A stretch of DNA of 64,000 nucleotides from Candidatus Heimdallarchaeota archaeon. Its GTDB lineage: Archaea > Asgardarchaeota > Heimdallarchaeia > JABLTI01. The notes under the pieces were generated by a model. That model was not told the origin of the DNA. It did not search any database and saw only the letters and a list, made by a program, of their open reading frames with translations. The stretch is from contig JABCTZ010000007.1 of NCBI GenBank assembly GCA_018238155.1, positions 96,001 through 160,000 of the forward strand, read 5' to 3'. Position 1 is the first letter of the stretch. The number at the start of each line of letters is the position of its first letter. The translations under genes were made by a program, and so were the position numbers. Shown here in pieces: positions 32,672 to 42,280 of the stretch.

Positions 32672-33949
32672 ATGTCTTTCGAACTTATTTATTCCATCAT
32701 AATTCCCATAGTAACTCTTGCTGCTTTGCTTTATGCAGGAATTGAGGATATTCTCCATAGAGAGATTCGAAGAGAAATTGTCTGGATTATTATGGTTATC
32801 GTTGGATTAGTAATGGATACTTTATATGTCATTAATGCAGAAGATCAAAATAAGGCTCTGCTTCTGATCTTAATTACTGTTGTTTTAGGATTTTTAATTG
32901 GGTTTGTTTTGTTTTATCTTGGTGTATGGGGTGGTGCTGATACCAAAGCACTATGGGCGCTCTCAATACTTACTCCTATTAATCCTCTTACTAGTAATTT
33001 AATAAACATTAATTTGCCCGATTTATTGATAATAAATATCATTGACTCAATGGTATTTTCTTTATTGTTGAATGCTGGACTTGTAGCTATTTTTTATCCA
33101 ATAATTCTGATGGTAGTAAATACTATTTCAGCATCAAAGGAATCACTCTTTGAAGAAGTAAGGGGAACTACATCCCAAAAAATCAGATGTTTCTTCTTCG
33201 GATATAAAAAGAATATAAGCAAAATTAATGAGAAAAAAATACATTTTGATTTTCTAGAAGAATTCAGTGATAGAGAATTTGAAGGTAAATTTGAAGGTGG
33301 TTTTGAAGGTCGATTAGATGGTAAATTCATTGGTATTTTTGATGGTGAGTTAATAGGTGAATTTACTGGAAAAGCAACTGGGGTGATTCAATTGTCTGAT
33401 ACAATAGATTTCGAACAACTATCTTTTGATAATGCTATTGCCAAAGCTAAACAGTTTACAAAAGAATTTGAACTCAGAAAAGATGATGATGAAACAGTAC
33501 CTGCTCTCTTAACGAAATATCGCAGGACGTTTGAAGGAACAGAAGACGCCGTTTTAGATTCTAAGGAATATATAATCAATATTGATGGTAGACATACTCA
33601 TCCAATTAAAGGATGCTTCATTGGTACACTTGAAGGAATTTTCGAAGGCAAGTTATCTGGTAAAATGTTTGGTAAATTAGTAGGCGATTTTGAAGGTCAA
33701 TCATCAAAAGGAAAAATAATTGGCAATACTACCAAGAACTCTCAAAATTGGCAACTAAATATACGAATGGGTTTAGATGAAGATGAAGTTATGGAACAAA
33801 GACAATTGAGAACTCTTTGGCAACTAAGAAAACAAAACAAGAAATCAGTCTGGGTAACCCCTGGAATACCTTTTGTTTCTTTAATGTTTTTAGGCTATAT
33901 TCAGTATTTGTTGTATGGCAATATTGCTCTACTTTTATTCAATTTATAA
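32672..33949 (+). CDS. Prepilin/preflagellin peptidase (A24, PibD/FlaK-like) with Gly-repeat insertion
   Basis: EDI..REI first Asp, GVWGGADTKA GxGD motif, C-terminal VWVTPGIPF. Confidence 0.88.
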   Translation: MSFELIYSIIIPIVTLAALLYAGIEDILHREIRREIVWIIMVIVGLVMDTLYVINAEDQNKALLLILITVVLGFLIGFVLFYLGVWGGADTKALWALSILTPINPLTSNLININLPDLLIINIIDSMVFSLLLNAGLVAIFYPIILMVVNTISASKESLFEEVRGTTSQKIRCFFFGYKKNISKINEKKIHFDFLEEFSDREFEGKFEGGFEGRLDGKFIGIFDGELIGEFTGKATGVIQLSDTIDFEQLSFDNAIAKAKQFTKEFELRKDDDETVPALLTKYRRTFEGTEDAVLDSKEYIINIDGRHTHPIKGCFIGTLEGIFEGKLSGKMFGKLVGDFEGQSSKGKIIGNTTKNSQNWQLNIRMGLDEDEVMEQRQLRTLWQLRKQNKKSVWVTPGIPFVSLMFLGYIQYLLYGNIALLLFNL

Positions 33950-34037
33950 CCAAATTAAACAAGAAACACTATTTTATTTATAAAAATGAGCGAAGAATTT
34001 TTTATTAAGAAGAAAAAATGACACAAGGTAAGGACAA

Positions 34038-35420
34038 ATGAATGATTATGTTATCGTAGGTGCTGGTCCCTCTGGGATCTTTTGTGCACTAGAACTTCTT
34101 AAACAAGGTGTAACTAAAATTACCCTTATTGATCGAGGCAAGGAAGTCTACAAAAGGAAATGCCCTCGACGAGAACGAAATATTGAATGCGTAGCCTGTT
34201 CTATTTGTGACATTACAAGTGGTTTTGGTGGAGCAGGAGCTTGGTCCGATGGTAAGATTACAAAAGATATCACTGGTACCGTTGGAGGTTGGATGACTGA
34301 TTTTCTCACTCATGAAGAACTAGCAAAATATACTGAATATGTTGATGAAGTTGTTCTTTCCTATAGCAATGGTGGTGATCGATATTTCTCTCCTGACCCT
34401 GAATTTGTTGATCAAAAGAAAAGCATTTGCAGAGCGGAAAACATGAAATTGATTACTTATCCTATTCGACATTTGGGAACTGATAATGCTTCTGCAATCA
34501 TGGATAATATTTACCTGTTTTTGAAAGATAAAATTAACATTATTCTAAAATCAACTGTTGATAAAATTCTTATTGAAAAAGGTAAAGCTATTGGTGTTTC
34601 AACAACAAAAGGAGAAACTTTCAAAGCGAATAAAGTAGTTATGGCAGTTGGTCGTGGTGGAACTAATTGGCTTAAAGCAGAATGTGATAGATTAAAAATT
34701 AAATACTCTAATAATGCCGTTGATATTGGTGTTCGTGTTGAAACCTTGAATGAATATTGTGCTGAGTTCACAGATAATTTATATGAATTTAAAATTGAAT
34801 ATGCAACGAAAACCTATGAGGATTCTGTTCGAACTTTCTGTGTTTGCCCTGGTGGATATGTTACAACTGAACGTTATGAGGAAACAACCTGTGTGAACGG
34901 TGAAAGTAGAACTAATGTAAAGAGTCCGAATACTAATTTTGCTATTCTCGTAACCTGCAATTTTACTGAGCCATTTAATCAACCCATTCAATATGCAAAA
35001 CATGTTGCATACCTTTCGAACATGCTCTCAGGTGGGAATTCCGTTTTAGTACAACGATTTGAAGATTTGAAGAATGGTCGACGTTCAACACCTGCTAGAT
35101 TAGCTCGTTCAGTGATCAAACCAACGTTGGAAAGTGCAATAGCAGGAGATATTACCTTTGCAATGCCAAGTAGAGTAATGAGTAATTTAAGAGATTTCTT
35201 GACTCATTTGAATGTTATAATGCCTGGAATTGATGGTCCAAATACTCTATTATATGCTCCTGAGATTAAGCTATATAGTATTCGAATTGATCTCACCAAA
35301 AATTTAGAATCCAAGGACATTAAAAATCTATACTTTTGTGGTGACGGCGCAGGAATTACTCGAGGTGTTATGCAAAGTGCTATTTCTGGAATTGTTGTTG
35401 CCAAAGCTGATAAAAAATGA
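34038..35420 (+). CDS. FAD-dependent oxidoreductase (COG2509-like)
   Basis: IVGAGPSG, GFGGAGAWSDGK, RHLGT, IGVRVE, VRTFCVCPGG, GDGAGITRG..Q. Confidence 0.9.
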   Translation: MNDYVIVGAGPSGIFCALELLKQGVTKITLIDRGKEVYKRKCPRRERNIECVACSICDITSGFGGAGAWSDGKITKDITGTVGGWMTDFLTHEELAKYTEYVDEVVLSYSNGGDRYFSPDPEFVDQKKSICRAENMKLITYPIRHLGTDNASAIMDNIYLFLKDKINIILKSTVDKILIEKGKAIGVSTTKGETFKANKVVMAVGRGGTNWLKAECDRLKIKYSNNAVDIGVRVETLNEYCAEFTDNLYEFKIEYATKTYEDSVRTFCVCPGGYVTTERYEETTCVNGESRTNVKSPNTNFAILVTCNFTEPFNQPIQYAKHVAYLSNMLSGGNSVLVQRFEDLKNGRRSTPARLARSVIKPTLESAIAGDITFAMPSRVMSNLRDFLTHLNVIMPGIDGPNTLLYAPEIKLYSIRIDLTKNLESKDIKNLYFCGDGAGITRGVMQSAISGIVVAKADKK

Positions 35421-35444
35421 TCAATACTGAACTTTGTTTATTTG

Positions 35445-36305
35445 CTAGTATTTTCTTTTCTTTTTACTAGCATTTACTTCTTTTCTTAGCGTATTTAGTT
35501 TCTTTTCTAGTTCTCTTCTATTTTCTCGGAGATTTCTTAATGTACCAATTAAAACCCCCTCGAGAGTAAATACTTCAGCATTTTCAAAATCAATTGCATC
35601 TCTCATTAGTACTATCGTTCTAAAATACTCGCTATCTATAGAATATCCTTCGATATATCTGTTAAATGGGGGAATAATAATATGAATTCTATCCGGTTTT
35701 CCTTCTAAAATATTCAACCATTTTGCTTTTACCCAAACCTTTTGAGTTATTTTAGAGCCTATTTCATCACGAAAGGTATACGCAGGATGAGCATGAGCAG
35801 AAATAGTTATGTCAGCAGTCCATACATCTAATGCAGGTGATGCATGCCCATGCCAAAGACCGATTGATTTATTTGTTTCTTTTTGCGTTAATCGAAATCC
35901 TTCAGCTTGAATAAGATTGATTTCTTCGGGAATGACTTCTTCAATTTTTCCATCATGATTTCCTTTTACTATTATTACATTTGTTTTTTTCACTAATCGT
36001 TTAAGAAACTTCCAAATTCTTCCTGCAATTGGGTGTGGTGTTCCATAAATAGCGTCTTTAAAATCACCTAGAAATATTAACGTGTCCGGTTTTTTTTCAT
36101 CAAGTAACCGAATGATATCATCTTCTGGTCGTTTTGATTCTGGAAGAATGATTCCTTTTTTGTTTCTTCCATAAACATAACCAATGTGTAAATCAGAAAC
36201 AATTAATGTTTTATTCATTTCCTTTTCATTAAACATTATTGCAGGTATCCCTGGAATAATTATTGAATTAGATTGCCCTTTCTTCTCATTGATGGACTTG
36301 GTCAT
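35445..36305 (-). CDS. Calcineurin-like metallophosphoesterase (COG1407-like)
   Basis: SDLHIG, LGD, GNHDG, HGH, AHAHP. Confidence 0.88.
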   Translation of the reverse strand: MTKSINEKKGQSNSIIIPGIPAIMFNEKEMNKTLIVSDLHIGYVYGRNKKGIILPESKRPEDDIIRLLDEKKPDTLIFLGDFKDAIYGTPHPIAGRIWKFLKRLVKKTNVIIVKGNHDGKIEEVIPEEINLIQAEGFRLTQKETNKSIGLWHGHASPALDVWTADITISAHAHPAYTFRDEIGSKITQKVWVKAKWLNILEGKPDRIHIIIPPFNRYIEGYSIDSEYFRTIVLMRDAIDFENAEVFTLEGVLIGTLRNLRENRRELEKKLNTLRKEVNASKKKRKY

Positions 36306-36354
36306 TCTTTCGGAGAATCCTCCTTATTAGTTTATCTAGTAATTATTGAGATTC

Positions 36355-37416
36355 TTAAAAGATTGCAACAAGTTTCACAAATAGAAAATCGATTAATAAC
36401 TCTAAACTTTCACGTGTAATTCCTGTTACAAAGAAAAATTCTGTTAGTTTTTTTCCATCTAATTCTTTTCCAATTATGCATTCTATCCATTCTCCATGTG
36501 TTTCTTTGAAAATAGCAATTTGGTTTGCAATTTCTTCGCTCTTAAATTCGGATATGGTATATGATTCCATTGCAACTAGATATTGCGAGAAAGGCATGTA
36601 ATAGCGAATATCCACATCCTCAAGTAGCAATCTATCTAAAAATTCCAAACAAGATATTATTCTATTCTCTTTATTTGAGAAATCAATTACAACATCTAAA
36701 ATTCTTGATAATATATCTAATCCAATTTGCAAGTTATCTGGAATTCTTCTTTGGACTATAACTTCAATTCGCGTTTTTTCTGTAGAAATACTTATTTCCT
36801 TATGAGAAAAATCTTCTTTTGACTCAAAAAATGCTTCTTTGCTTGCAATAGAAAGGCTATAGTTTGATTGTTTCAAAGAAATGATTACTTTTTGAAACAC
36901 ATTAAATTTTTCACTAACTAGTAAACGTGATGTTTCTTGTTTCGGAATAATTTCACTTTGAGTCTTAATCTTTGGTTTCCTTTCTTGTAGTGAAACAATT
37001 TCATTGTTACTTAATTTGCTTGGAAGTATGAAATTAGCGATTGAAGTTAATAACCCATTTAACATCTTAAAATATGGTCTATTATTACTTCTTTTTTTAC
37101 TTGTAGAAATAAGCACATCTAATATTTTCTCTGCCTCAATCAAATCTATAGCTGGTTGAGCTATTAATCCTAATCCAAACTGTCTTTTCTTTCTGGGGAA
37201 ATTTGGATCATCTAAAGAAATAGCTTTTGCGAATGCAGTTTTATTTCCAACTTTTCGAACAGAGAACTCATTTGCTCTTATTATCCACATTAGTAAATTT
37301 TCATTACTTGTAACATTTGGAATTTGAAAATTCTTTGGATTTTTATTTCGTATAACCGGTCCTTTTAGCGAATCAAATTCAACAAGAATTATGCCCAACT
37401 TTGTACTTTTTATCAT
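36355..37416 (-). CDS. Longin/uDENN (NPRL2/folliculin-like) domain protein with C-terminal wHTH
   Basis: IILVEFDSLKGPVI..NP.NF and DPNFPRKKRQFGLGLI match recalled NPRL2 segments IFFSEFHPTLGPKI..VP.DF and HKKYSRNALLFNLGFV; C-terminal LDGKKLTE..helix resembles NPRL2 IDGFRHIQKI. Confidence 0.72.
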   Translation of the reverse strand: MIKSTKLGIILVEFDSLKGPVIRNKNPKNFQIPNVTSNENLLMWIIRANEFSVRKVGNKTAFAKAISLDDPNFPRKKRQFGLGLIAQPAIDLIEAEKILDVLISTSKKRSNNRPYFKMLNGLLTSIANFILPSKLSNNEIVSLQERKPKIKTQSEIIPKQETSRLLVSEKFNVFQKVIISLKQSNYSLSIASKEAFFESKEDFSHKEISISTEKTRIEVIVQRRIPDNLQIGLDILSRILDVVIDFSNKENRIISCLEFLDRLLLEDVDIRYYMPFSQYLVAMESYTISEFKSEEIANQIAIFKETHGEWIECIIGKELDGKKLTEFFFVTGITRESLELLIDFLFVKLVAIF

Positions 37417-37464
37417 AAACTACACCCAAATCTAATTTAATGTTTTTTTTATTTGCTCTTTTCA

Positions 37465-38424
37465 TTAAATCTTATAGTCATTATAAGCATCTCTCAAATG
37501 TTCTAACCCTGTGCGATTTATGATTCTCGACATTCCCATTTGTGTTTTTGGAAATCCAATTAAAAGTGCTAAATAATCATCTTTTGAACAATTAATTCTA
37601 GATACAATACTATAATTTGACTCGTCCTCATCCTCAAGTACAATAATCTTTATTCCTCCAACTTCCAAATCTGTTTGGAAGTCTTCAATAGCAGAGAAAA
37701 TTTTCGCTACATAAGCAGCAAAAACGGTGGAATTTTCTACTCCTGTAAATGATTCACCAATGAGTAATCCATTTGGGTCTGTTATAAGAACGATTTTTGC
37801 ATTTGTTTGCTTTCGAACCCATTCAGCTAATTTATCAAAACTGATTCTATTTATGCCAACATGTTTAGCAATAACTTTAACAAATGGCTCATGAATTGTT
37901 TCAGGATTATGAAGTGTAGTCTCAAATATCTTGAATTGATAAATAACACTTGGGAAAAGATGTTCTAAAGGGTCAAGAATTTGTTTTTTGATGGTTAACC
38001 CATTTTCCGCTTCTTCTAGGTCTTGTTTATGAGCTAAAAGTAGAAAGTTTTTACATTCAGGGGAAAGCTGCATTAAATCTTCAATTGATCTTTGTAGTTC
38101 TTCTCTAGCTTCATTTATTCTTTCAATCTCAGATGAATCCACAACAAAAATAAATGTGCTAACATTTTCAAAGTACTCGTTTTTCATCGTCCCATGAAAT
38201 TCTCTTAATCGTAAATCTTCTTGTCCTGGTGGAATGAAAAAAATATATTTCTTTTTTAAGAATATTTTTTCTGAAATCTCGAGATCTTTACTAGGTGTTC
38301 TTCTTTGAGCAGCTTCAATTGGGATATATTTCATTATATCTTGAACTGAACTTTTCCCTGCATTATCTAATCCCGCAATTAGAACTTTCTCAATTACCAT
38401 CTCCAATTCTTGCTCTGTTTGCAT
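37465..38424 (-). CDS. Rag/Gtr1-like small GTPase fused to a C-terminal roadblock domain
   Basis: G1 GLDNAGKS, G3-like IPPGQ, YFENVSTFIFVVD, G4 HKQD, G5 ETT; C-terminal VLITDPNGLLIGES..FAAY roadblock pattern. Confidence 0.85.
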   Translation of the reverse strand: MQTEQELEMVIEKVLIAGLDNAGKSSVQDIMKYIPIEAAQRRTPSKDLEISEKIFLKKKYIFFIPPGQEDLRLREFHGTMKNEYFENVSTFIFVVDSSEIERINEAREELQRSIEDLMQLSPECKNFLLLAHKQDLEEAENGLTIKKQILDPLEHLFPSVIYQFKIFETTLHNPETIHEPFVKVIAKHVGINRISFDKLAEWVRKQTNAKIVLITDPNGLLIGESFTGVENSTVFAAYVAKIFSAIEDFQTDLEVGGIKIIVLEDEDESNYSIVSRINCSKDDYLALLIGFPKTQMGMSRIINRTGLEHLRDAYNDYKI

Positions 38425-38761
38425 AAGGAATCAATCTCATTTACTTTGGATTTTTCTTTTACCATTAAATCATGAATAATTGATTTTTTGTTAATGTTAA
38501 AGAATACTATAATTTAATTCAGATTAAAGCATTAAAAAACCACGAATTTATTTTTCATATAATAGAAAAATTTTTGTAGGAGTTAATATACTCGAATATT
38601 GCTAAATTATAAATCATATACAGAAAGCAATCATTTCAACATGAATCAAAAAAACAGGAATATTATCTTTGAACTTAATAAAAACACTTTTTTGTAAAGG
38701 ATGTATTACGGTTAGACTATTTAACGTTAAAACCATGTTGCATTATCAATAATGATAACTT

Positions 38762-38824
38762 ATTGACAAAAAGTAGATAAAAGAATTGACAAAATGGCGT
38801 TTCTTGCATAAGATTTAAAAGATA
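38762..38824 (+). promoter_or_regulatory. Direct repeats and TATA-like box upstream of rpoB
   Basis: ATTGACAAAA at 38762-38771 and 38785-38794, followed by TTTAAAA. Confidence 0.35.
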
Positions 38825-38938
38825 AAAGTTTCCGCATTGATTTCATTGCTCTTCCAGCTAAAAAGTAGCACACTTCATGATTATATTTTTGACATGAAAA
38901 GATAGCCTTAGAAGACCGTATCAGCGAGGATAAACTGA

Positions 38939-41900
38939 ATGTCTGAGACCGAAAAAATAACAATTGAGGATAGATGGGTTCTTATTGAATCAATGGTTAA
39001 GGAACTTGGCCTTGTACGACAGCATCTGGATAGTTATAATGAATTTATTCAAAATGGGATGCAAAATGTTGTAAAAGAAATTGGTAGTATTAAGCCTGAA
39101 ATTCCTAATTATTATGTAAAGATCAATAAAATCGATATGGATCCTCCCAATATACGAGAAGCTGATGGATCATTAAATAATATTTTTCCAAGTGAAGCTC
39201 GAATAAGAAATCTAACATACACAGCACCATTATATCTCGATATGACTCCAATTCGAGTTGATGAAGCTGGTAACGAAATTCCAAGAGAAACTTCTAGAGT
39301 ATTTGTTGGTCGTATGCCAATTATGCTCAAATCTAAAGTTTGCCCTCTTAGTAGAATGACGAAAGAGGAGTTAATAAAAGCCGGTGAAGATCCTAATGAT
39401 CCTGGTGGATATTTTGTCATTAATGGCAGTGAAAGGGTTCTAGTAACTCAAGAAGATTTAGCTCCAAATCGTATTTTGATTGAGAAGAAAACTGGTAGCG
39501 TAACAAGTATGGCTAAAGTGTTCAGCACAGCTCAAGGTGTGCGCGCACCTGTCACTATGGAACGCTCTCGAGATGGTAGTTTAAACGTTAGTTTTCCATC
39601 CGTTCCTAGAAAAATTCCTTTTGTTGTACTTATGAAAGCTTTAGGCTTATCTTCCGATAAAGCAATTGTAGAAGCAGTTTCAGATAAAACTGATGTTCGG
39701 AAAGAATTAATTCCATCATTGGATGAAGCCTCAGAGGTTAGTGATGAAGATAGAGCTCTTGATTTTATTGGCAAACGAGTTGCTGTAGGTCAAACAATTG
39801 ATTATCGAATTAAAAGAGCTCGTGAAATATTAAATCGATATTTACTCAGACATATTGGGACGAAAGAAGAACATAGATTTGGTAAAGCATTCTTTCTCGG
39901 TCAAATGGCACAACGTTTACTCGAGCTTGAATTAGATAAGCGTGAGGAAGATGATAAAGATCATTATTCAAATAAAAGGCTTAAACTCTCTGGAGAATCA
40001 CTTATTTCTCTATTCAGAGTAGCTTTTATGAGCTTATGCCGAGATATTAAATATCAACTCGAAAGAACAGCTGTACGTGGTAGAACACCTAACATTAGAA
40101 CTGCTGTAAGAGCTGATGTTATTACTGAAAGATTAAGACATGCCCTAGCAACTGGTAATTGGGTAGGTGGAAAAGCTGGAGTTAGTCAATTACTTAATAG
40201 AACTAATTACCTCTCAACTCTGAGTCATTTGAGAAGAGTTGTAAGTCCATTAAGTCGAAACCAACCTCATTTTGAAGCAAGAGATTTGCATCCAACTCAC
40301 TTCGGTAAGATATGTCCAAGTGAAACACCTGAAGGACCAAATTGTGGTTTAGTAAAGAATCTTGCATTAGATGCTTACATCAGTGTTGGGACAAATGAAA
40401 AAAACATTGAAGATTTCCTTTATACTCTTGGTTTAAATAAACTACAAAACTTACAATCAACTGATTCAACAAAAATATTTCTTAATGGTCGCTTACTAGG
40501 CTCACATCCAGATCCTAAGGGATTTGTTAATGATGTCCGAAAAGCGCGGAGAAAAAATTTGATTAGTTCTGAAGTTAATATCAACTTTTATGATGATATT
40601 CAAGAAGTTCAAGTTAACAGTGATCATGGTAGAGTAAGAAGACCAATTATTGTTATTGACAAAGGAAAGATTAAACTTGATAAAAAACATGTTGAAAAGA
40701 TCACTTCAGGTGCTTGGAGTTGGCATGATTTAATTCAAAGAGGAATTCTAGAATACATTGATGCAGAAGAAGAAGAGAGTGCCTATATTGCTATGCAAAT
40801 AGAGGATTTAGAAAAAGATACTGGTCATACACATTTAGAGATTGCTCCAAGTTCAATTTTAGGTATTTGTGCTTCACTTATTCCTTTTGCTGAGCATAAT
40901 CAATCTCCAAGAAACACTTACGAGTCTGCAATGGCTAAACAAGCATTAGGTATGTATGCTGCAAATTATCGAATAAGAGTTGACACTCGATCTCACATTC
41001 TCTTTTATTCCCAGAAACCACTTGTTAAAACTCATGGAATGGACATTATCAATTTTGATAAACGTCCCGCAGGGCAAAACGTGGTAATAGCTTTATTGAG
41101 CTATGAAGGCTATAATATGGAAGATGCAATCATTTTCAATAAACAATCAATTGAACGTGGATTAGCTAGATCAGCTTTCTTCAGACGATATGAAGCAGAA
41201 GAACGACGATATCCCGCAGGTCAAGAAGATAAATTTGAGCGTATGAGTAAAGAAGTCAGAGGCTTTAGACCACCTGAAGCATATGTTCATTTAAGTTCTG
41301 ATGGTATTGTTGAACCAGAAAGTCAACTTAAAGGCGATCAAGTACTTATTGGTAGAACTTCTCCACCAAGATTTCTTGAAGAATATAGTGAATTTGAAGT
41401 ACGTGCTCCAATTAGACATGAAACCAGTATTAGTATGCGTCATAGTGAAGAAGGGTTTGTCGATACTGTTATCTTAACCGAAACAAGCGATGGTAATCGT
41501 TTAGTTAAAGTTAAGATGAGAGATATGCGCATTCCTGAATTGGGTGATAAGTTTGCTTCACGACATGGACAAAAAGGCGTAATTGGTTTAATCGCACCCC
41601 CCGAAGACTTACCATTTACTTCTGAAGGGATCGTTCCTGATATTATTGTTAATTGCCATGCTATACCTTCAAGAATGACCATTGGTCAAATTCTTGAGAC
41701 TATGGCTGCAGTGTACGGAACAAAAATAGGCACAGTGGTTGATGCAACACCTTTTGAAGGAATTCCTTCCGATTATTTAGTTCAAGAAATGAAAAAATTA
41801 GGCTTGAACTATTATGGAAAACAAGCAATGTATAATGGCATTACAGGTAGAAAATATGATGTTGATATTTTCATGGGTATTGCTTATTATCAAAAACTTC

Positions 41901-42280
41901 ACCATTTAGTAAAGGATAAAACTCATGCTCGTGCAAGAGGTCCTGTCCAAATTCTCACAAGGCAACCAACAGAGGGTCGTGCAAGAGAAGGTGGTTTGCG
42001 ATTTGGTGAAATGGAACGTGATTGTTTAGTAGGACATGGAGCAGCTTTGCTCCTGAAAGAGCGTTTACTTGAAGAATCAGATAAAACGAACATCAACGTT
42101 TGTGGTAACTGTGGAGTAATCGCGACTTATGATAGAAACAGAGACAAATACCTTTGTCCAATATGCAAAGGTGAGTCTGAAGTATCAAATGTAGTGATGA
42201 GCTATGCATTCAAATTGCTTTTACAAGAACTAACATCTCTTGGAATGGCTCCAAAATTAATATTAAAGGATATGGCTTAG
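38939..42280 (+). CDS. rpoB: DNA-directed RNA polymerase subunit B (Rpo2, unsplit)
   Basis: GGYFVINGSERV, ETPEG.NCGL, GDKFASRHGQKG, GGLRFGEMERD, Zn ribbon. Confidence 0.98.
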   Translation: MSETEKITIEDRWVLIESMVKELGLVRQHLDSYNEFIQNGMQNVVKEIGSIKPEIPNYYVKINKIDMDPPNIREADGSLNNIFPSEARIRNLTYTAPLYLDMTPIRVDEAGNEIPRETSRVFVGRMPIMLKSKVCPLSRMTKEELIKAGEDPNDPGGYFVINGSERVLVTQEDLAPNRILIEKKTGSVTSMAKVFSTAQGVRAPVTMERSRDGSLNVSFPSVPRKIPFVVLMKALGLSSDKAIVEAVSDKTDVRKELIPSLDEASEVSDEDRALDFIGKRVAVGQTIDYRIKRAREILNRYLLRHIGTKEEHRFGKAFFLGQMAQRLLELELDKREEDDKDHYSNKRLKLSGESLISLFRVAFMSLCRDIKYQLERTAVRGRTPNIRTAVRADVITERLRHALATGNWVGGKAGVSQLLNRTNYLSTLSHLRRVVSPLSRNQPHFEARDLHPTHFGKICPSETPEGPNCGLVKNLALDAYISVGTNEKNIEDFLYTLGLNKLQNLQSTDSTKIFLNGRLLGSHPDPKGFVNDVRKARRKNLISSEVNINFYDDIQEVQVNSDHGRVRRPIIVIDKGKIKLDKKHVEKITSGAWSWHDLIQRGILEYIDAEEEESAYIAMQIEDLEKDTGHTHLEIAPSSILGICASLIPFAEHNQSPRNTYESAMAKQALGMYAANYRIRVDTRSHILFYSQKPLVKTHGMDIINFDKRPAGQNVVIALLSYEGYNMEDAIIFNKQSIERGLARSAFFRRYEAEERRYPAGQEDKFERMSKEVRGFRPPEAYVHLSSDGIVEPESQLKGDQVLIGRTSPPRFLEEYSEFEVRAPIRHETSISMRHSEEGFVDTVILTETSDGNRLVKVKMRDMRIPELGDKFASRHGQKGVIGLIAPPEDLPFTSEGIVPDIIVNCHAIPSRMTIGQILETMAAVYGTKIGTVVDATPFEGIPSDYLVQEMKKLGLNYYGKQAMYNGITGRKYDVDIFMGIAYYQKLHHLVKDKTHARARGPVQILTRQPTEGRAREGGLRFGEMERDCLVGHGAALLLKERLLEESDKTNINVCGNCGVIATYDRNRDKYLCPICKGESEVSNVVMSYAFKLLLQELTSLGMAPKLILKDMA

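What the first reader, a model, noticed from the sequence alone, without database searches (positions are those of the whole stretch)
35445..38424. Candidate proto Rag-GATOR1/folliculin module: Rag-like GTPase next to an NPRL2-like longin protein that keeps the arginine finger
Seen: 37465..38424 is a GTPase + roadblock fusion with RagA-like segments (YFENVSTFIFVVD, LSPECK..LLAHKQDL, ETT), followed 48 nt later by 36355..37416. By eye against recalled human NPRL2, the second protein matches at EF...GP.I...P..F, at F-P-R75-x4-F-G-L-G (NPRL2 Y-S-R78-x4-F-N-L-G; codon 37194-37192) and at a C-terminal DG-wHTH. Known: Rag GTPases are GTPase+roadblock proteins; NPRL2 R78 and folliculin R164 are their GAP arginine fingers in this longin loop; Asgards encode Rag-like, roadblock and longin domains. 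Inference: an operon-encoded cognate GTPase/GAP pair, a minimal ancestor of the nutrient-sensing switch upstream of TORC1. The co-oriented metallophosphoesterase 49 nt downstream could be an output or just a neighbour.
Basis: partly seen in the sequence, partly recalled or inferred. Interest (0 to 1): 0.88.

Follow-up and report, generated by a model that had tools for sequence, protein, structure and literature searches.

The report
Archaeal Rag-like GTPase with NPRL2-like partner
An Asgard archaeon encodes, side by side in a conserved two-gene unit, a Rag-type GTPase and a protein whose first domain looks like the catalytic part of the eukaryotic Rag-inactivating protein NPRL2, down to its key arginine; this gives a small, directly testable candidate for a pre-eukaryotic version of the switch that sits upstream of TORC1.

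Summary
In detail: three co-oriented minus-strand ORFs at the stated coordinates, with the stated gaps (48 and 49 nt), motifs and R75 codon. P0001 (37465..38424) is a Rag/Gtr-type GTPase with a C-terminal roadblock domain. Its family profile hits the Asgard RagA-like LokiRagO (E 1e-25), then RagA and Gtr1 (about 1e-19, alignments running into the roadblock), ahead of Arl3. Its G3 Asp is replaced (F[IV][PT]PGQ). P0002 (36355..37416) has no Pfam hit, but its N-terminal longin fold matches NPRL2 best in three searches. It carries the GP motif specific to GAP-type longins, and a weak profile alignment places the invariant R75 on human NPRL2 R78. The C-terminal half is not specifically NPRL2-like: it is a second longin-like domain plus a helical end.

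The new element is context. The GTPase-then-longin pair is adjacent in every genome that has either gene, across one heimdallarchaeial family and two Njordarchaeia families with unrelated flanks. The metallophosphoesterase is a lineage-specific neighbour. Asgard NPRL2-like longins (2020) and their GP and Arg motifs (2025) were already published, but the partner GTPase was left open. Binding and GAP activity remain untested. Other first-stage notes of this scan flagged the same stretch of this genome.

The parts
37465..38424 (-). P0001, 319 aa: Rag/Gtr-type small GTPase (about residues 1-190) fused to a C-terminal roadblock domain (about residues 196-319)
   Evidence: Pfam Arf 2.2e-15 and Gtr1_RagA 2.7e-15. 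Family profile versus PDB: LokiRagO 8yl2_A 1.3e-25 over the full length, RagA 8.5e-20 and Gtr1 3e-19 with alignments running into the roadblock domain. Robl_LC7 in 12 of 20 orthologs.
38347..38373 (-). P-loop G18-S26 (GLDNAGKSS)
   Evidence: G18, G23, K24 and S26 are invariant in 20 orthologs from three families.
38221..38238 (-). G3/switch II F63-Q68 (FFIPPGQ region). The catalytic Gln68 is kept, but the canonical G3 Asp is replaced by Ile/Val.
   Evidence: F63, P66, G67 and Q68 are invariant. The Asp position is I or V in all 20 orthologs.
38020..38031 (-). G4 motif H132-K-Q-D135 (the Rag-type HKxD rather than NKxD)
   Evidence: Invariant in the alignment. It aligns to RagA HKMD and LokiRagO HKFD.
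37417..37464 (-). 48-nt spacer between the GTPase and longin genes, with an SD-like GGGTG at 37427..37423
   Evidence: Sequence read directly. In the Njordarchaeia cassettes the two genes overlap or are 0-4 nt apart.
36355..37416 (-). P0002, 353 aa: GAP-type (NPRL2-like) longin domain, disordered linker, second longin-like domain, helical C-terminal end
   Evidence: No Pfam, NCBIfam or PDB sequence hit. AF2 models with pLDDT 79 (whole protein) and 91 (C-terminal half). Fold searches.
37036..37404 (-). Longin domain 1, residues 5-127, topology bbabbbaa
   Evidence: DSSP of the model. VIA-align: NPRL2 8fw5_B Z 10.6, rmsd 3.3, 130 aa; Npr2-sized SEA-complex chain 8adl_S Z 9.8. Foldseek to NPRL2 chains E 3.5e-6. 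Atlas rank 1 is an NPR2 cluster.
37357..37380 (-). E13-F14-D15...G19-P20: the GP motif at the b1-b2 turn and start of b2
   Evidence: F14, G19 and P20 are invariant in 37 sequences from three families. The position matches the GP motif defined for GAP longins in PMC12290439. It aligns to NPRL2 G20-P21.
37192..37194 (-). Codon of R75, the candidate arginine finger, in the b4-b5 turn (DPNFxRKKRQFG)
   Evidence: Invariant in 30 of 30 family members. It aligns to Arg in the f25 Njordarchaeia proteins, with a register uncertainty of about one residue in f24. It aligns to NPRL2 R78.
36934..37020 (-). Low-confidence, variable linker, residues 133-161
   Evidence: pLDDT 25-40. Length-variable and poorly conserved in alignment A1.
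36613..36933 (-). Second longin/roadblock-like alpha/beta domain, about residues 162-268
   Evidence: Sub-model pLDDT 91. VIA-align: synbindin Z 7.8, SRX Z 7.7, VAMP7 longin Z 7.3. These are generic longin matches.
36358..36612 (-). Conserved helical C-terminal end, about residues 269-353, possibly winged-helix-like
   Evidence: High pLDDT and many invariant residues. Only weak fold matches, Z 4.4-4.7.
35445..36305 (-). P0003, 286 aa: calcineurin-like metallophosphoesterase (SbcD-related archaeal type). It is a co-oriented neighbour with an AAGGAGGA SD at 36325..36318, and is not part of the conserved core.
   Evidence: Pfam Metallophos 1.1e-9; TIGR00024 7.7e-21, below its cut-off. It follows the longin gene in all family-f1 loci examined and is absent next to the Njordarchaeia cassettes.

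Best explanation
The two genes encode a cognate small-GTPase switch and its regulator. P0001 is a Rag/Gtr-type GTPase that carries its own roadblock domain. P0002 uses an NPRL2/folliculin-class longin domain to bind the G domain and to speed up GTP hydrolysis. It would do this by inserting R75 from the b4-b5 turn, which lies next to the GP motif, towards the nucleotide, where it would act together with the GTPase's own Gln68.

The genes are probably co-transcribed. The metallophosphoesterase downstream is a lineage-specific passenger.

Shown here: the folds, the motifs, residue conservation, adjacency and co-occurrence. Inferred: physical binding, the GAP direction of regulation, the catalytic role of R75, and co-transcription. 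The cellular output is unknown.
For: GTPase identity:
- The family profile hits LokiRagO at 1.3e-25, RagA at 8.5e-20 and Gtr1 at 3e-19, through both domains, ahead of Arl3 at 1.5e-17.
- HKQD and Gln68 are invariant.

Longin identity:
- NPRL2 is the top hit in three searches: Foldseek E 3.5e-6, probability 1.0; VIA-align Z 10.6, 130 aa, 17% identity; Atlas rank 1 is an NPR2 cluster.
- The Atlas feature search scores 0.94 to an Asgard cluster in which 19% of members carry PF06218.
- The only recurring sub-threshold Pfam hits among 37 family longins are Folliculin (4 members, 4.8e-5), C9orf72-like (3), NPR2 (1, 0.002) and Afi1 (5).

Catalytic-site features:
- G19-P20 is invariant in 37 of 37 sequences. 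It sits at the start of b2, where PMC12290439 places the GP motif that is found only in GAP longins.
- R75 is invariant in family f1 and is Arg in the f25 Njordarchaeia relatives, whereas R78 is Lys in one of them.
- The profile alignment to human NPRL2 puts R75 on R78 and GP on G20-P21.

Linkage:
- In all 8 loci checked (own genome, five f25, two f24), the longin gene lies directly downstream on the same strand, with a gap of -26 to +48 nt.
- The flanking genes differ between classes: rpoB and a FAD protein versus an aIF2-gamma-like gene and rpL15e.
- Both genes have the same phyletic pattern. Family f1 has the longin in 11 of 11 genomes and the GTPase in 10 of 11, and the missing one is at a contig edge. 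The other 72 genomes of the class have neither.
- SD-like motifs precede the internal genes.

Precedent: MglA is a functional GTPase without the G3 Asp (PMC3000849).
Against: - No sequence-level match to NPR2 is significant. P0002 has no Pfam hit, and the NPRL2 alignment has E 0.69.
- The C-terminal half is not specifically NPRL2-like or DENN-like.
- No second paralogue that could act as an NPRL3 or FNIP partner was found in the genome at E <= 10. All known longin GAPs act as heterodimers.
- Most longin and roadblock proteins are GEFs or platforms rather than GAPs.
- The GTPase lacks the Mg-supporting G3 Asp, so its hydrolysis chemistry may be atypical.
- Within family f1 the whole neighbourhood is collinear, so adjacency there adds little. 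The case for linkage rests on the seven Njordarchaeia loci, which are kin of one another.
- The loop register of the Arg is uncertain by about one residue in family f24.
Confidence: 0.55

Rival explanations
1. The two proteins are true partners, but P0002 is a GEF, a scaffold or an effector platform for the GTPase rather than a GAP. Most longin and roadblock proteins (Mon1-Ccz1, TRAPP, DENN, Ragulator) work this way. On this view R75 and the GP motif serve binding or folding.
For: The conserved adjacency and co-occurrence support partnership, not the direction of regulation. Fold matches also include GEF longins: DENND1A Z 8.8, Lst4 Z 8.6, Mon1-Ccz1 Z about 7. The tandem longin-like architecture recalls multi-longin GEFs such as Mon1, Ccz1, Fuz and HPS1. 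Afi1/DENN-type weak Pfam hits occur in 5 of 37 members.
Against: According to PMC12290439, the GP motif is absent from non-GAP longins. The best fold matches are the GAP subunit NPRL2/Npr2. The invariant Arg aligns with the catalytic R78.
Confidence: 0.2
2. P0001 is a pseudo-GTPase or a constitutively nucleotide-bound protein, because its G3 Asp is lost. The pair would then form a static complex, for example a longin/roadblock platform, with no GTPase cycle.
For: The G3 Asp is replaced by I or V in all 20 orthologs. An earlier first-reader note on this genome made the same suggestion (e1-5497729).
Against: All other nucleotide-binding and catalytic residues are invariant across two classes: the P-loop GK[ST], PS in switch I, G67-Q68, HKQD and T169. 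That degree of conservation is not expected for a dead site. MglA lacks the same Asp and is an active, GAP-regulated GTPase (PMC3000849).
Confidence: 0.12
3. The adjacency is inherited gene order without functional coupling. The longin protein would then act on another of the many small GTPases in the genome, or on something else entirely.
For: Within family f1 the entire region from rpoB to DHDPS is collinear, so adjacency there could simply be inherited. Published work states that Asgard GTPases are generally not in operons with longin or roadblock genes (PMC10933270).
Against: The pair, and only the pair, is retained in Njordarchaeia with different flanks and with overlapping or abutting reading frames. 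Neither gene was found without the other in 83 genomes of the class.
Confidence: 0.08

Closest known systems
GATOR1 catalytic subunit NPRL2 (yeast Npr2) acting on RagA/Gtr1
   Same: The N-terminal longin domain is the best structural match. The GP motif sits at the start of b2. The Arg in the b4-b5 turn aligns with R78. The neighbouring gene encodes a Rag-type GTPase with a roadblock domain.
   Different: No significant sequence similarity: Pfam NPR2 is not hit by P0002. The C-terminal half is not shown to be the NPRL2 TINI/CTD. No NPRL3-like paralogue was found, and DEPDC5 was not searched for. The system is encoded as a two-gene prokaryotic cassette. The GTPase lacks the G3 Asp.
Folliculin-FNIP (RagC/D GAP) and C9orf72-SMCR8 (Arf GAP) longin-DENN complexes
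   Same: Same class of GAP longin with a GP motif and an Arg finger (PMC12290439). There are weak Pfam Folliculin and C9orf72-like hits in some family members, and fold matches at FLCN Z 7.6 and C9orf72-SMCR8 Z 6.7.
   Different: No DENN domain was recognised after the longin; a second longin-like domain and a helical end follow instead. The fold match is weaker than to NPRL2.
Asgard GP-motif / 'FLCN/SMCR8-type' longins (PMC12290439, 2025) and Asgard NPRL2-like longin families (bioRxiv 10.1101/2020.10.19.343400)
   Same: An Asgard longin protein with a GP motif and an Arg finger, resembling eukaryotic GAP longins. This is the published kind to which P0002 belongs.
   Different: Those papers report no partner GTPase or conserved operon. 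The 2025 paper asks explicitly whether ArfR or Rag/Gtr GTPases are the partners. Here the longin sits in a conserved cassette with a Rag/Gtr-type GTPase. I could not check whether P0002's family is among their 15 proteins, because their sequence file is not held.
LokiRagO / LokiRagM, solved Asgard Rag-like GTPases (PDB 8yl2, 9m28/8zla)
   Same: LokiRagO is the best sequence match for P0001 over both the G and roadblock domains (E 1.3e-25). It has the same architecture and an HKxD G4 motif.
   Different: LokiRagO keeps the canonical DxxGQ (WDLGGQ in the alignment), whereas the P0001 family has F[IV][PT]PGQ.
MglA-MglB (bacterial polarity GTPase and its roadblock GAP)
   Same: A prokaryotic small GTPase without the G3 Asp (PMC3000849), and a regulator from the roadblock/longin superfamily.
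   Different: P0001 matches Rag and Arf. The MglB mechanism relies on residues of MglA itself rather than on a GAP-supplied Arg finger (my own knowledge, not tested here).

Membership tests
Rag/Gtr GTPases | G domain matching Gtr1_RagA | tested here: met
   PF04670 scores 56.8 bits against a cut-off of 22, spanning 206 of 232 profile positions, and is hit by 20 of 20 orthologs. Arf scores equally for single sequences, but with the family profile RagA and Gtr1 (about 1e-19) rank above Arl3 (1.5e-17).
Rag/Gtr GTPases | C-terminal roadblock domain (CRD) | tested here: met
   Robl_LC7 is hit in 12 of 20 orthologs, best E 2.5e-5. Profile alignments to RagA (to residue 259), Gtr1 and LokiRagO (to residue 337) run through the C-terminal domain. 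A single-sequence search of residues 190-319 alone was weak.
Rag/Gtr GTPases | G4 motif HKxD (His in place of Asn) | tested here: met
   H132-K-Q-D135 is invariant in the alignment and aligns to RagA HKMD.
Rag/Gtr GTPases | Canonical G3 DxxGQ | tested here: not met
   The Asp position is I or V in all 20 orthologs, while G67-Q68 are kept.
Rag/Gtr GTPases | Function as a heterodimer of two Rag paralogues | tested here: inconclusive
   There is only one close ortholog per genome at E <= 1e-28. More distant Rag-like paralogues were not surveyed.
Rag/Gtr GTPases | Placement inside the RagGtr clade in a phylogeny with eukaryotic sequences | not tested
   No eukaryotic sequences were available to the tools used.
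NPRL2/Npr2 (GATOR1/SEACIT catalytic subunit) | N-terminal longin domain of the NPRL2 type | tested here: met
   NPRL2 chains are the top hits by Foldseek (E 3.5e-6), VIA-align (Z 10.6, rmsd 3.3, 130 aa) and the Atlas (NPR2 cluster at rank 1). The identity of chain 8fw5_B as NPRL2 is given.
NPRL2/Npr2 (GATOR1/SEACIT catalytic subunit) | GP motif and arginine finger (R78) in the longin domain | tested here: met
   G19-P20 and R75 are invariant and align to G20-P21 and R78 of human NPRL2. That alignment has E 0.69 and is weak on its own.
NPRL2/Npr2 (GATOR1/SEACIT catalytic subunit) | Significant match to Pfam NPR2 (PF06218) | tested here: not met
   P0002 has no hit at E <= 1. Only 1 of 37 family longins hits NPR2, at E 0.002.
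NPRL2/Npr2 (GATOR1/SEACIT catalytic subunit) | NPRL2-type middle and C-terminal domains (TINI, CTD) | tested here: inconclusive
   Foldseek aligns the whole protein to NPRL2 over about 400 columns, but with TM 0.25. The C-terminal half searched alone gives generic longin matches (Z 7.8) and weak helical matches, with nothing specific to NPRL2.
NPRL2/Npr2 (GATOR1/SEACIT catalytic subunit) | Paralogous NPRL3 partner and DEPDC5 | tested here: not met
   No second match to the P0002 family profile was found in the own genome at E <= 10; the genome is 91% complete. DEPDC5 was not searched for.
NPRL2/Npr2 (GATOR1/SEACIT catalytic subunit) | GAP activity towards a Rag GTPase | not testable with these tools
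   This needs biochemistry.
Folliculin/SMCR8 longin-DENN proteins | Longin domain followed by a DENN domain | tested here: inconclusive
   The longin domain matches FLCN at Z 7.6. Pfam Folliculin is hit below threshold in 4 of 37 members. The C-terminal half gave no clear DENN match.
Asgard GP-motif GAP-type longins (PMC12290439) | Longin fold with a GP motif before or at b2 and a spatially adjacent conserved Arg | tested here: met
   The topology is bbabbbaa, with GP at the start of b2 and R75 at the start of b5. In the usual longin sheet order (2-1-5-4-3, from my own knowledge) the b1-b2 and b4-b5 turns lie on the same edge of the sheet beside each other. Conservation is shown.

The most novel reading that the evidence does not exclude
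The cassette is a minimal archaeal Rag GTPase/longin-GAP switch that shares ancestry with the RagA-GATOR1 (NPRL2) module of eukaryotes. In this reading the second longin-like domain of P0002 (or the GTPase's own roadblock domain) plays in cis the role that NPRL3 or FNIP plays in trans. That would mean Rag inactivation by a longin arginine finger predates eukaryotes and the lysosome.
Probability: 0.3. Interest if true: 0.85.

Novelty: new variant of a known kind. Interest (0 to 1): 0.62.

Why it matters
Longin-domain GAPs (GATOR1, folliculin, C9orf72-SMCR8) control TORC1 and lysosomal signalling, and they are disease genes. Their origin is unclear.

Published work has found look-alike longins in Asgard archaea, but it could not say which GTPase they act on, and it noted that Asgard GTPases are rarely in operons with their regulators.

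This locus supplies a specific, conserved one-to-one pairing of a Rag-type GTPase with an NPRL2-like longin that keeps the GP motif and the arginine. A two-protein in vitro experiment (wild type versus R75A) could therefore test whether the Rag-GAP mechanism existed before eukaryotes.

Tried and rejected
- **Complex prediction.** P0001 full length plus P0002 longin domain plus GTP and Mg scored 0.02 against a mark of 0.32. The tool returned no verdict, so this is not evidence either way.
- **RNA evidence for co-transcription.** No RNA holder was listed.
- **Fused longin-GTPase forms of this family.** None was found with the longin profile at longer lengths. The tool says this is weak evidence.
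- **Sequence searches of P0002.** Pfam, NCBIfam and PDB gave nothing. The full-length family profile against PDB gave only chance-level hits.
- **Exhaustive phmmer.** Only 12 representative clusters were found, all the same family.
- **Supplementary sequences of PMC12290439.** They are not held, so I could not check overlap with that paper's 15 Asgard longins.
- **Shen et al. 2019 on Arg-78.** The paper is not held.
- **Weak longin-profile hits in family f20.** These hits (E 1e-3 to 1e-4) have no GTPase within 1.5 kb. My crop of them did not align to the profile, so they are left as unclear.
- **Similarity between the C-terminal halves.** None was detected between the Njordarchaeia proteins and P0002.
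- **MglA-type identity for P0001.** No MglA chain is among the 60 best PDB rows shown for the family profile. This does not exclude a distant relationship.
- **The metallophosphoesterase as an 'output'.** Rejected as a core component, because it is absent from the Njordarchaeia cassettes.


Full report
**Observation.** The three minus-strand ORFs exist exactly as described.
- P0001 is at 37465..38424 (319 aa).
- P0002 is at 36355..37416 (353 aa) and starts 48 nt after the stop of P0001.
- P0003 is at 35445..36305 (286 aa) and starts 49 nt after the stop of P0002.
- The quoted peptide segments, Q68 and the R75 codon (37194..37192) are all correct.

**The GTPase.**
- P0001 hits Pfam Arf (57 bits) and Gtr1_RagA (56.8 bits, spanning 206 of 232 profile positions). 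It also hits Robl_LC7 weakly.
- I built a profile from 20 orthologs taken from three taxonomic families (alignment A5) and searched it against PDB sequences.
  - The best match is the Asgard 'RagA-like' LokiRagO (8yl2_A, E 1.3e-25, aligned from the P-loop to the end of the roadblock domain).
  - Human RagA (8.5e-20) and yeast Gtr1 (3e-19) follow, with alignments that extend into their roadblock domains.
  - Arl3 follows at 1.5e-17, covering the G domain only.
- Robl_LC7 is hit in 12 of the 20 orthologs.
- The P-loop, a Pro-Ser in switch I, G67-Q68, the Rag-type HKQD and T169 are invariant.
- The G3 Asp is replaced by Ile or Val in every member, giving F[IV][PT]PGQ.
- MglA shows that a small GTPase without this Asp can be active (PMC3000849).
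- So P0001 is a Rag/Gtr-type GTPase-roadblock protein with one non-canonical motif.

**The longin protein, N-terminal domain.**
- P0002 has no Pfam, NCBIfam or PDB sequence hit.
- It belongs to a narrow family: 47 relatives, or 12 clusters at 50% identity, all from Asgard MAGs.
- An AF2 model from 30 sequences (pLDDT 79) gives residues 5-127 the longin strand and helix order bbabbbaa.
- Three searches rank NPRL2/Npr2 first:
  - Foldseek against PDB: NPRL2 chains of GATOR1 structures at E 3.5e-6 to 1e-3, and an Npr2-sized chain of the SEA complex.
  - VIA-align over 48,161 chains: 8fw5_B, which is NPRL2, at Z 10.6, rmsd 3.3, 130 residues and 17% identity; 8adl_S at Z 9.8.
  - The ESM Atlas shape search: an NPR2 (PF06218) cluster at rank 1.
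- Other longins score lower: FLCN Z 7.6, C9orf72-SMCR8 Z 6.7, and a Loki roadblock-longin protein Z 9.6.
- The Atlas feature search agrees.
- Among 37 family longin domains, the only recurring weak Pfam hits are Folliculin, C9orf72-like, NPR2 and Afi1.

**The longin protein, C-terminal half.** I modelled it separately (pLDDT 91). It is a second generic longin/roadblock-like domain (Z 7.8 to synbindin, 7.7 to SRX) followed by a conserved helical end with only weak winged-helix-like matches. I could not show that it is NPRL2-like beyond the first domain.

**Catalytic-site features.**
- R75 and R78 are invariant in 30 family members, inside DPNFxRKKRQFG. G19-P20 is nearly invariant there.
- Adding distant relatives leaves F14, G19 and P20 invariant in 37 of 37 sequences. 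An Arg-Lys pair is always present in the b4-b5 turn.
- R78 becomes Lys in one relative while R75 stays Arg. The loop register is uncertain by about one residue in one family.
- PMC12290439 defines a GP motif at the end of the b1-b2 loop or the start of b2. It describes the motif as present in NPRL2, FLCN, SMCR8 and C9orf72, absent from non-GAP longins, and next to the arginine finger. G19-P20 lies exactly there in the model.
- The longin profile, searched against all PDB sequences, returns human NPRL2 as its second and third best hits. The alignment places EF on EF, G19-P20 on G20-P21, P..F on P..F and R75 on R78.
- With E 0.69 that alignment is not significant alone.

**Linkage.**
- In six loci carrying P0002 homologues down to 37% identity, the trio is kept. 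In five of them the GTPase gene is present immediately upstream of the longin gene; in the sixth the contig starts at the longin gene.
- However, the whole region from rpoB to DHDPS is also kept in those loci, and all of them belong to one GTDB family (f1, 11 of 11 genomes). Adjacency there is therefore weak evidence.
- The informative result comes from distant relatives found with the family profiles. In two other families (f25 with 5 of 5 genomes, f24 with 2 of 7), a 228-291 aa protein with the same longin domain lies directly downstream of an ortholog of P0001. NCBI record names identify these lineages as Njordarchaeia.
  - The P0001 ortholog shares 26% identity over 289 aa with P0001 (E 1e-16) and has the same PGQ and HKQD motifs.
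  - The two reading frames overlap or are 0-4 nt apart.
  - The flanking genes are unrelated to those in f1, and no metallophosphoesterase is present.
- Searching from the GTPase side, close orthologs occur once per genome in f1 (10 of 11, the exception being at a contig edge) and in none of 72 genomes of the other six families of the class. This is the same pattern as the longin.
- The pair therefore behaves as a unit. The metallophosphoesterase does not.
- SD-like motifs precede the two internal genes in the window. That is compatible with an operon but does not prove one.

**Mechanism.** The best-supported reading is a cognate GTPase/regulator pair in which the longin domain acts as an arginine-finger GAP, as in GATOR1 and folliculin.
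- Shown: folds, motifs, conservation, adjacency and co-occurrence.
- Inferred: binding, direction of regulation, the role of R75 and co-transcription.
- Rivals:
  - The longin is a GEF or a platform instead of a GAP.
  - The GTPase is a pseudo-GTPase.
  - The adjacency has no functional meaning.
- Arguments against the strict NPRL2 analogy:
  - No NPRL3-like paralogue was found.
  - The C-terminal half is unassigned.
  - The G3 Asp is missing.
  - The phyletic range is narrow, which does not by itself indicate an ancestral Asgard trait.

**What is already known.**
- Liu et al. (bioRxiv 10.1101/2020.10.19.343400) described NPRL2-like longin families in Asgard archaea and Rag GTPases fused to longins. 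They stated that most eukaryote-like genes are not in conserved neighbourhoods. The operon they highlight is a different one (LAMTOR1-like, Rab-like, DENN).
- Tran et al. (PMC10933270) noted that Asgard GTPases are generally not in operons with roadblock or longin genes. They pointed out that this makes partners hard to predict.
- PMC12290439 reported the GP motif and the Arg finger in 15 Asgard longins and asked whether ArfR or Rag/Gtr GTPases are their partners.
- I found no report of this cassette. The preprint on Asgard Arf-family GTPases contains no neighbourhood analysis.
- The finding is therefore a new variant within a published kind. Its value is that it nominates a specific partner and a two-protein test.

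**Verdict.** The 'proto-GATOR1' label goes beyond the evidence. Confidence in the GAP-pair reading is 0.55. Confidence that the two proteins are functional partners of some kind is higher.

Noticed in passing
window 32672..33949 (+): A 425-aa prepilin-peptidase-like membrane protein (homologues carry Peptidase_A24 and Arc_PepC_II). It has two blocks of period-4 Gly repeats (FEGKFEGGFEGRLDGKF... and LEGIFEGKLSGKMFGKLVGDFEG) in its central soluble region. The gene is conserved as a neighbour in all family-f1 loci where the contig reaches that far.
   Followed up: no
window 33949..42280, and L001, L002, L004, L006, L007: The whole block is collinear across the family even where the longin protein is only 37-40% identical. 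Its order is rpoA'/rpoB (divergent), GTPase, longin, metallophosphoesterase, then convergent genes for a FAD-dependent protein (PF21688), peptidase A24 and DHDPS. There is an AT-rich intergenic region of about 500 nt between rpoB and the GTPase gene.
   Followed up: partly
L007 4841..5000 (P0046/P0042 gene calls): In one sub-lineage the longin gene is called as 311 aa, starting at MIRAKEFS. That call lacks b1-b2 and the GP motif, and it leaves a 160-nt gap after the GTPase gene. This is probably a mis-called start or a real N-terminal truncation; I did not resolve which.
   Followed up: no
L043 1471..1875 (+) (genome G397, family f32): A stand-alone 134-aa ORF begins with LVEFDPIQGP, an EFD..GP motif like that of the cassette longins, and has no GTPase within 1.5 kb. 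It may be another GP-motif longin subfamily.
   Followed up: no
L039 1823..2929 (-) (Njordarchaeia, family f24): The GTPase ortholog is called with an N-terminal extension of about 45 aa, which is hydrophobic and may be an artefact of start choice or a membrane anchor. A shorter 325-aa form is the cluster representative.
   Followed up: no
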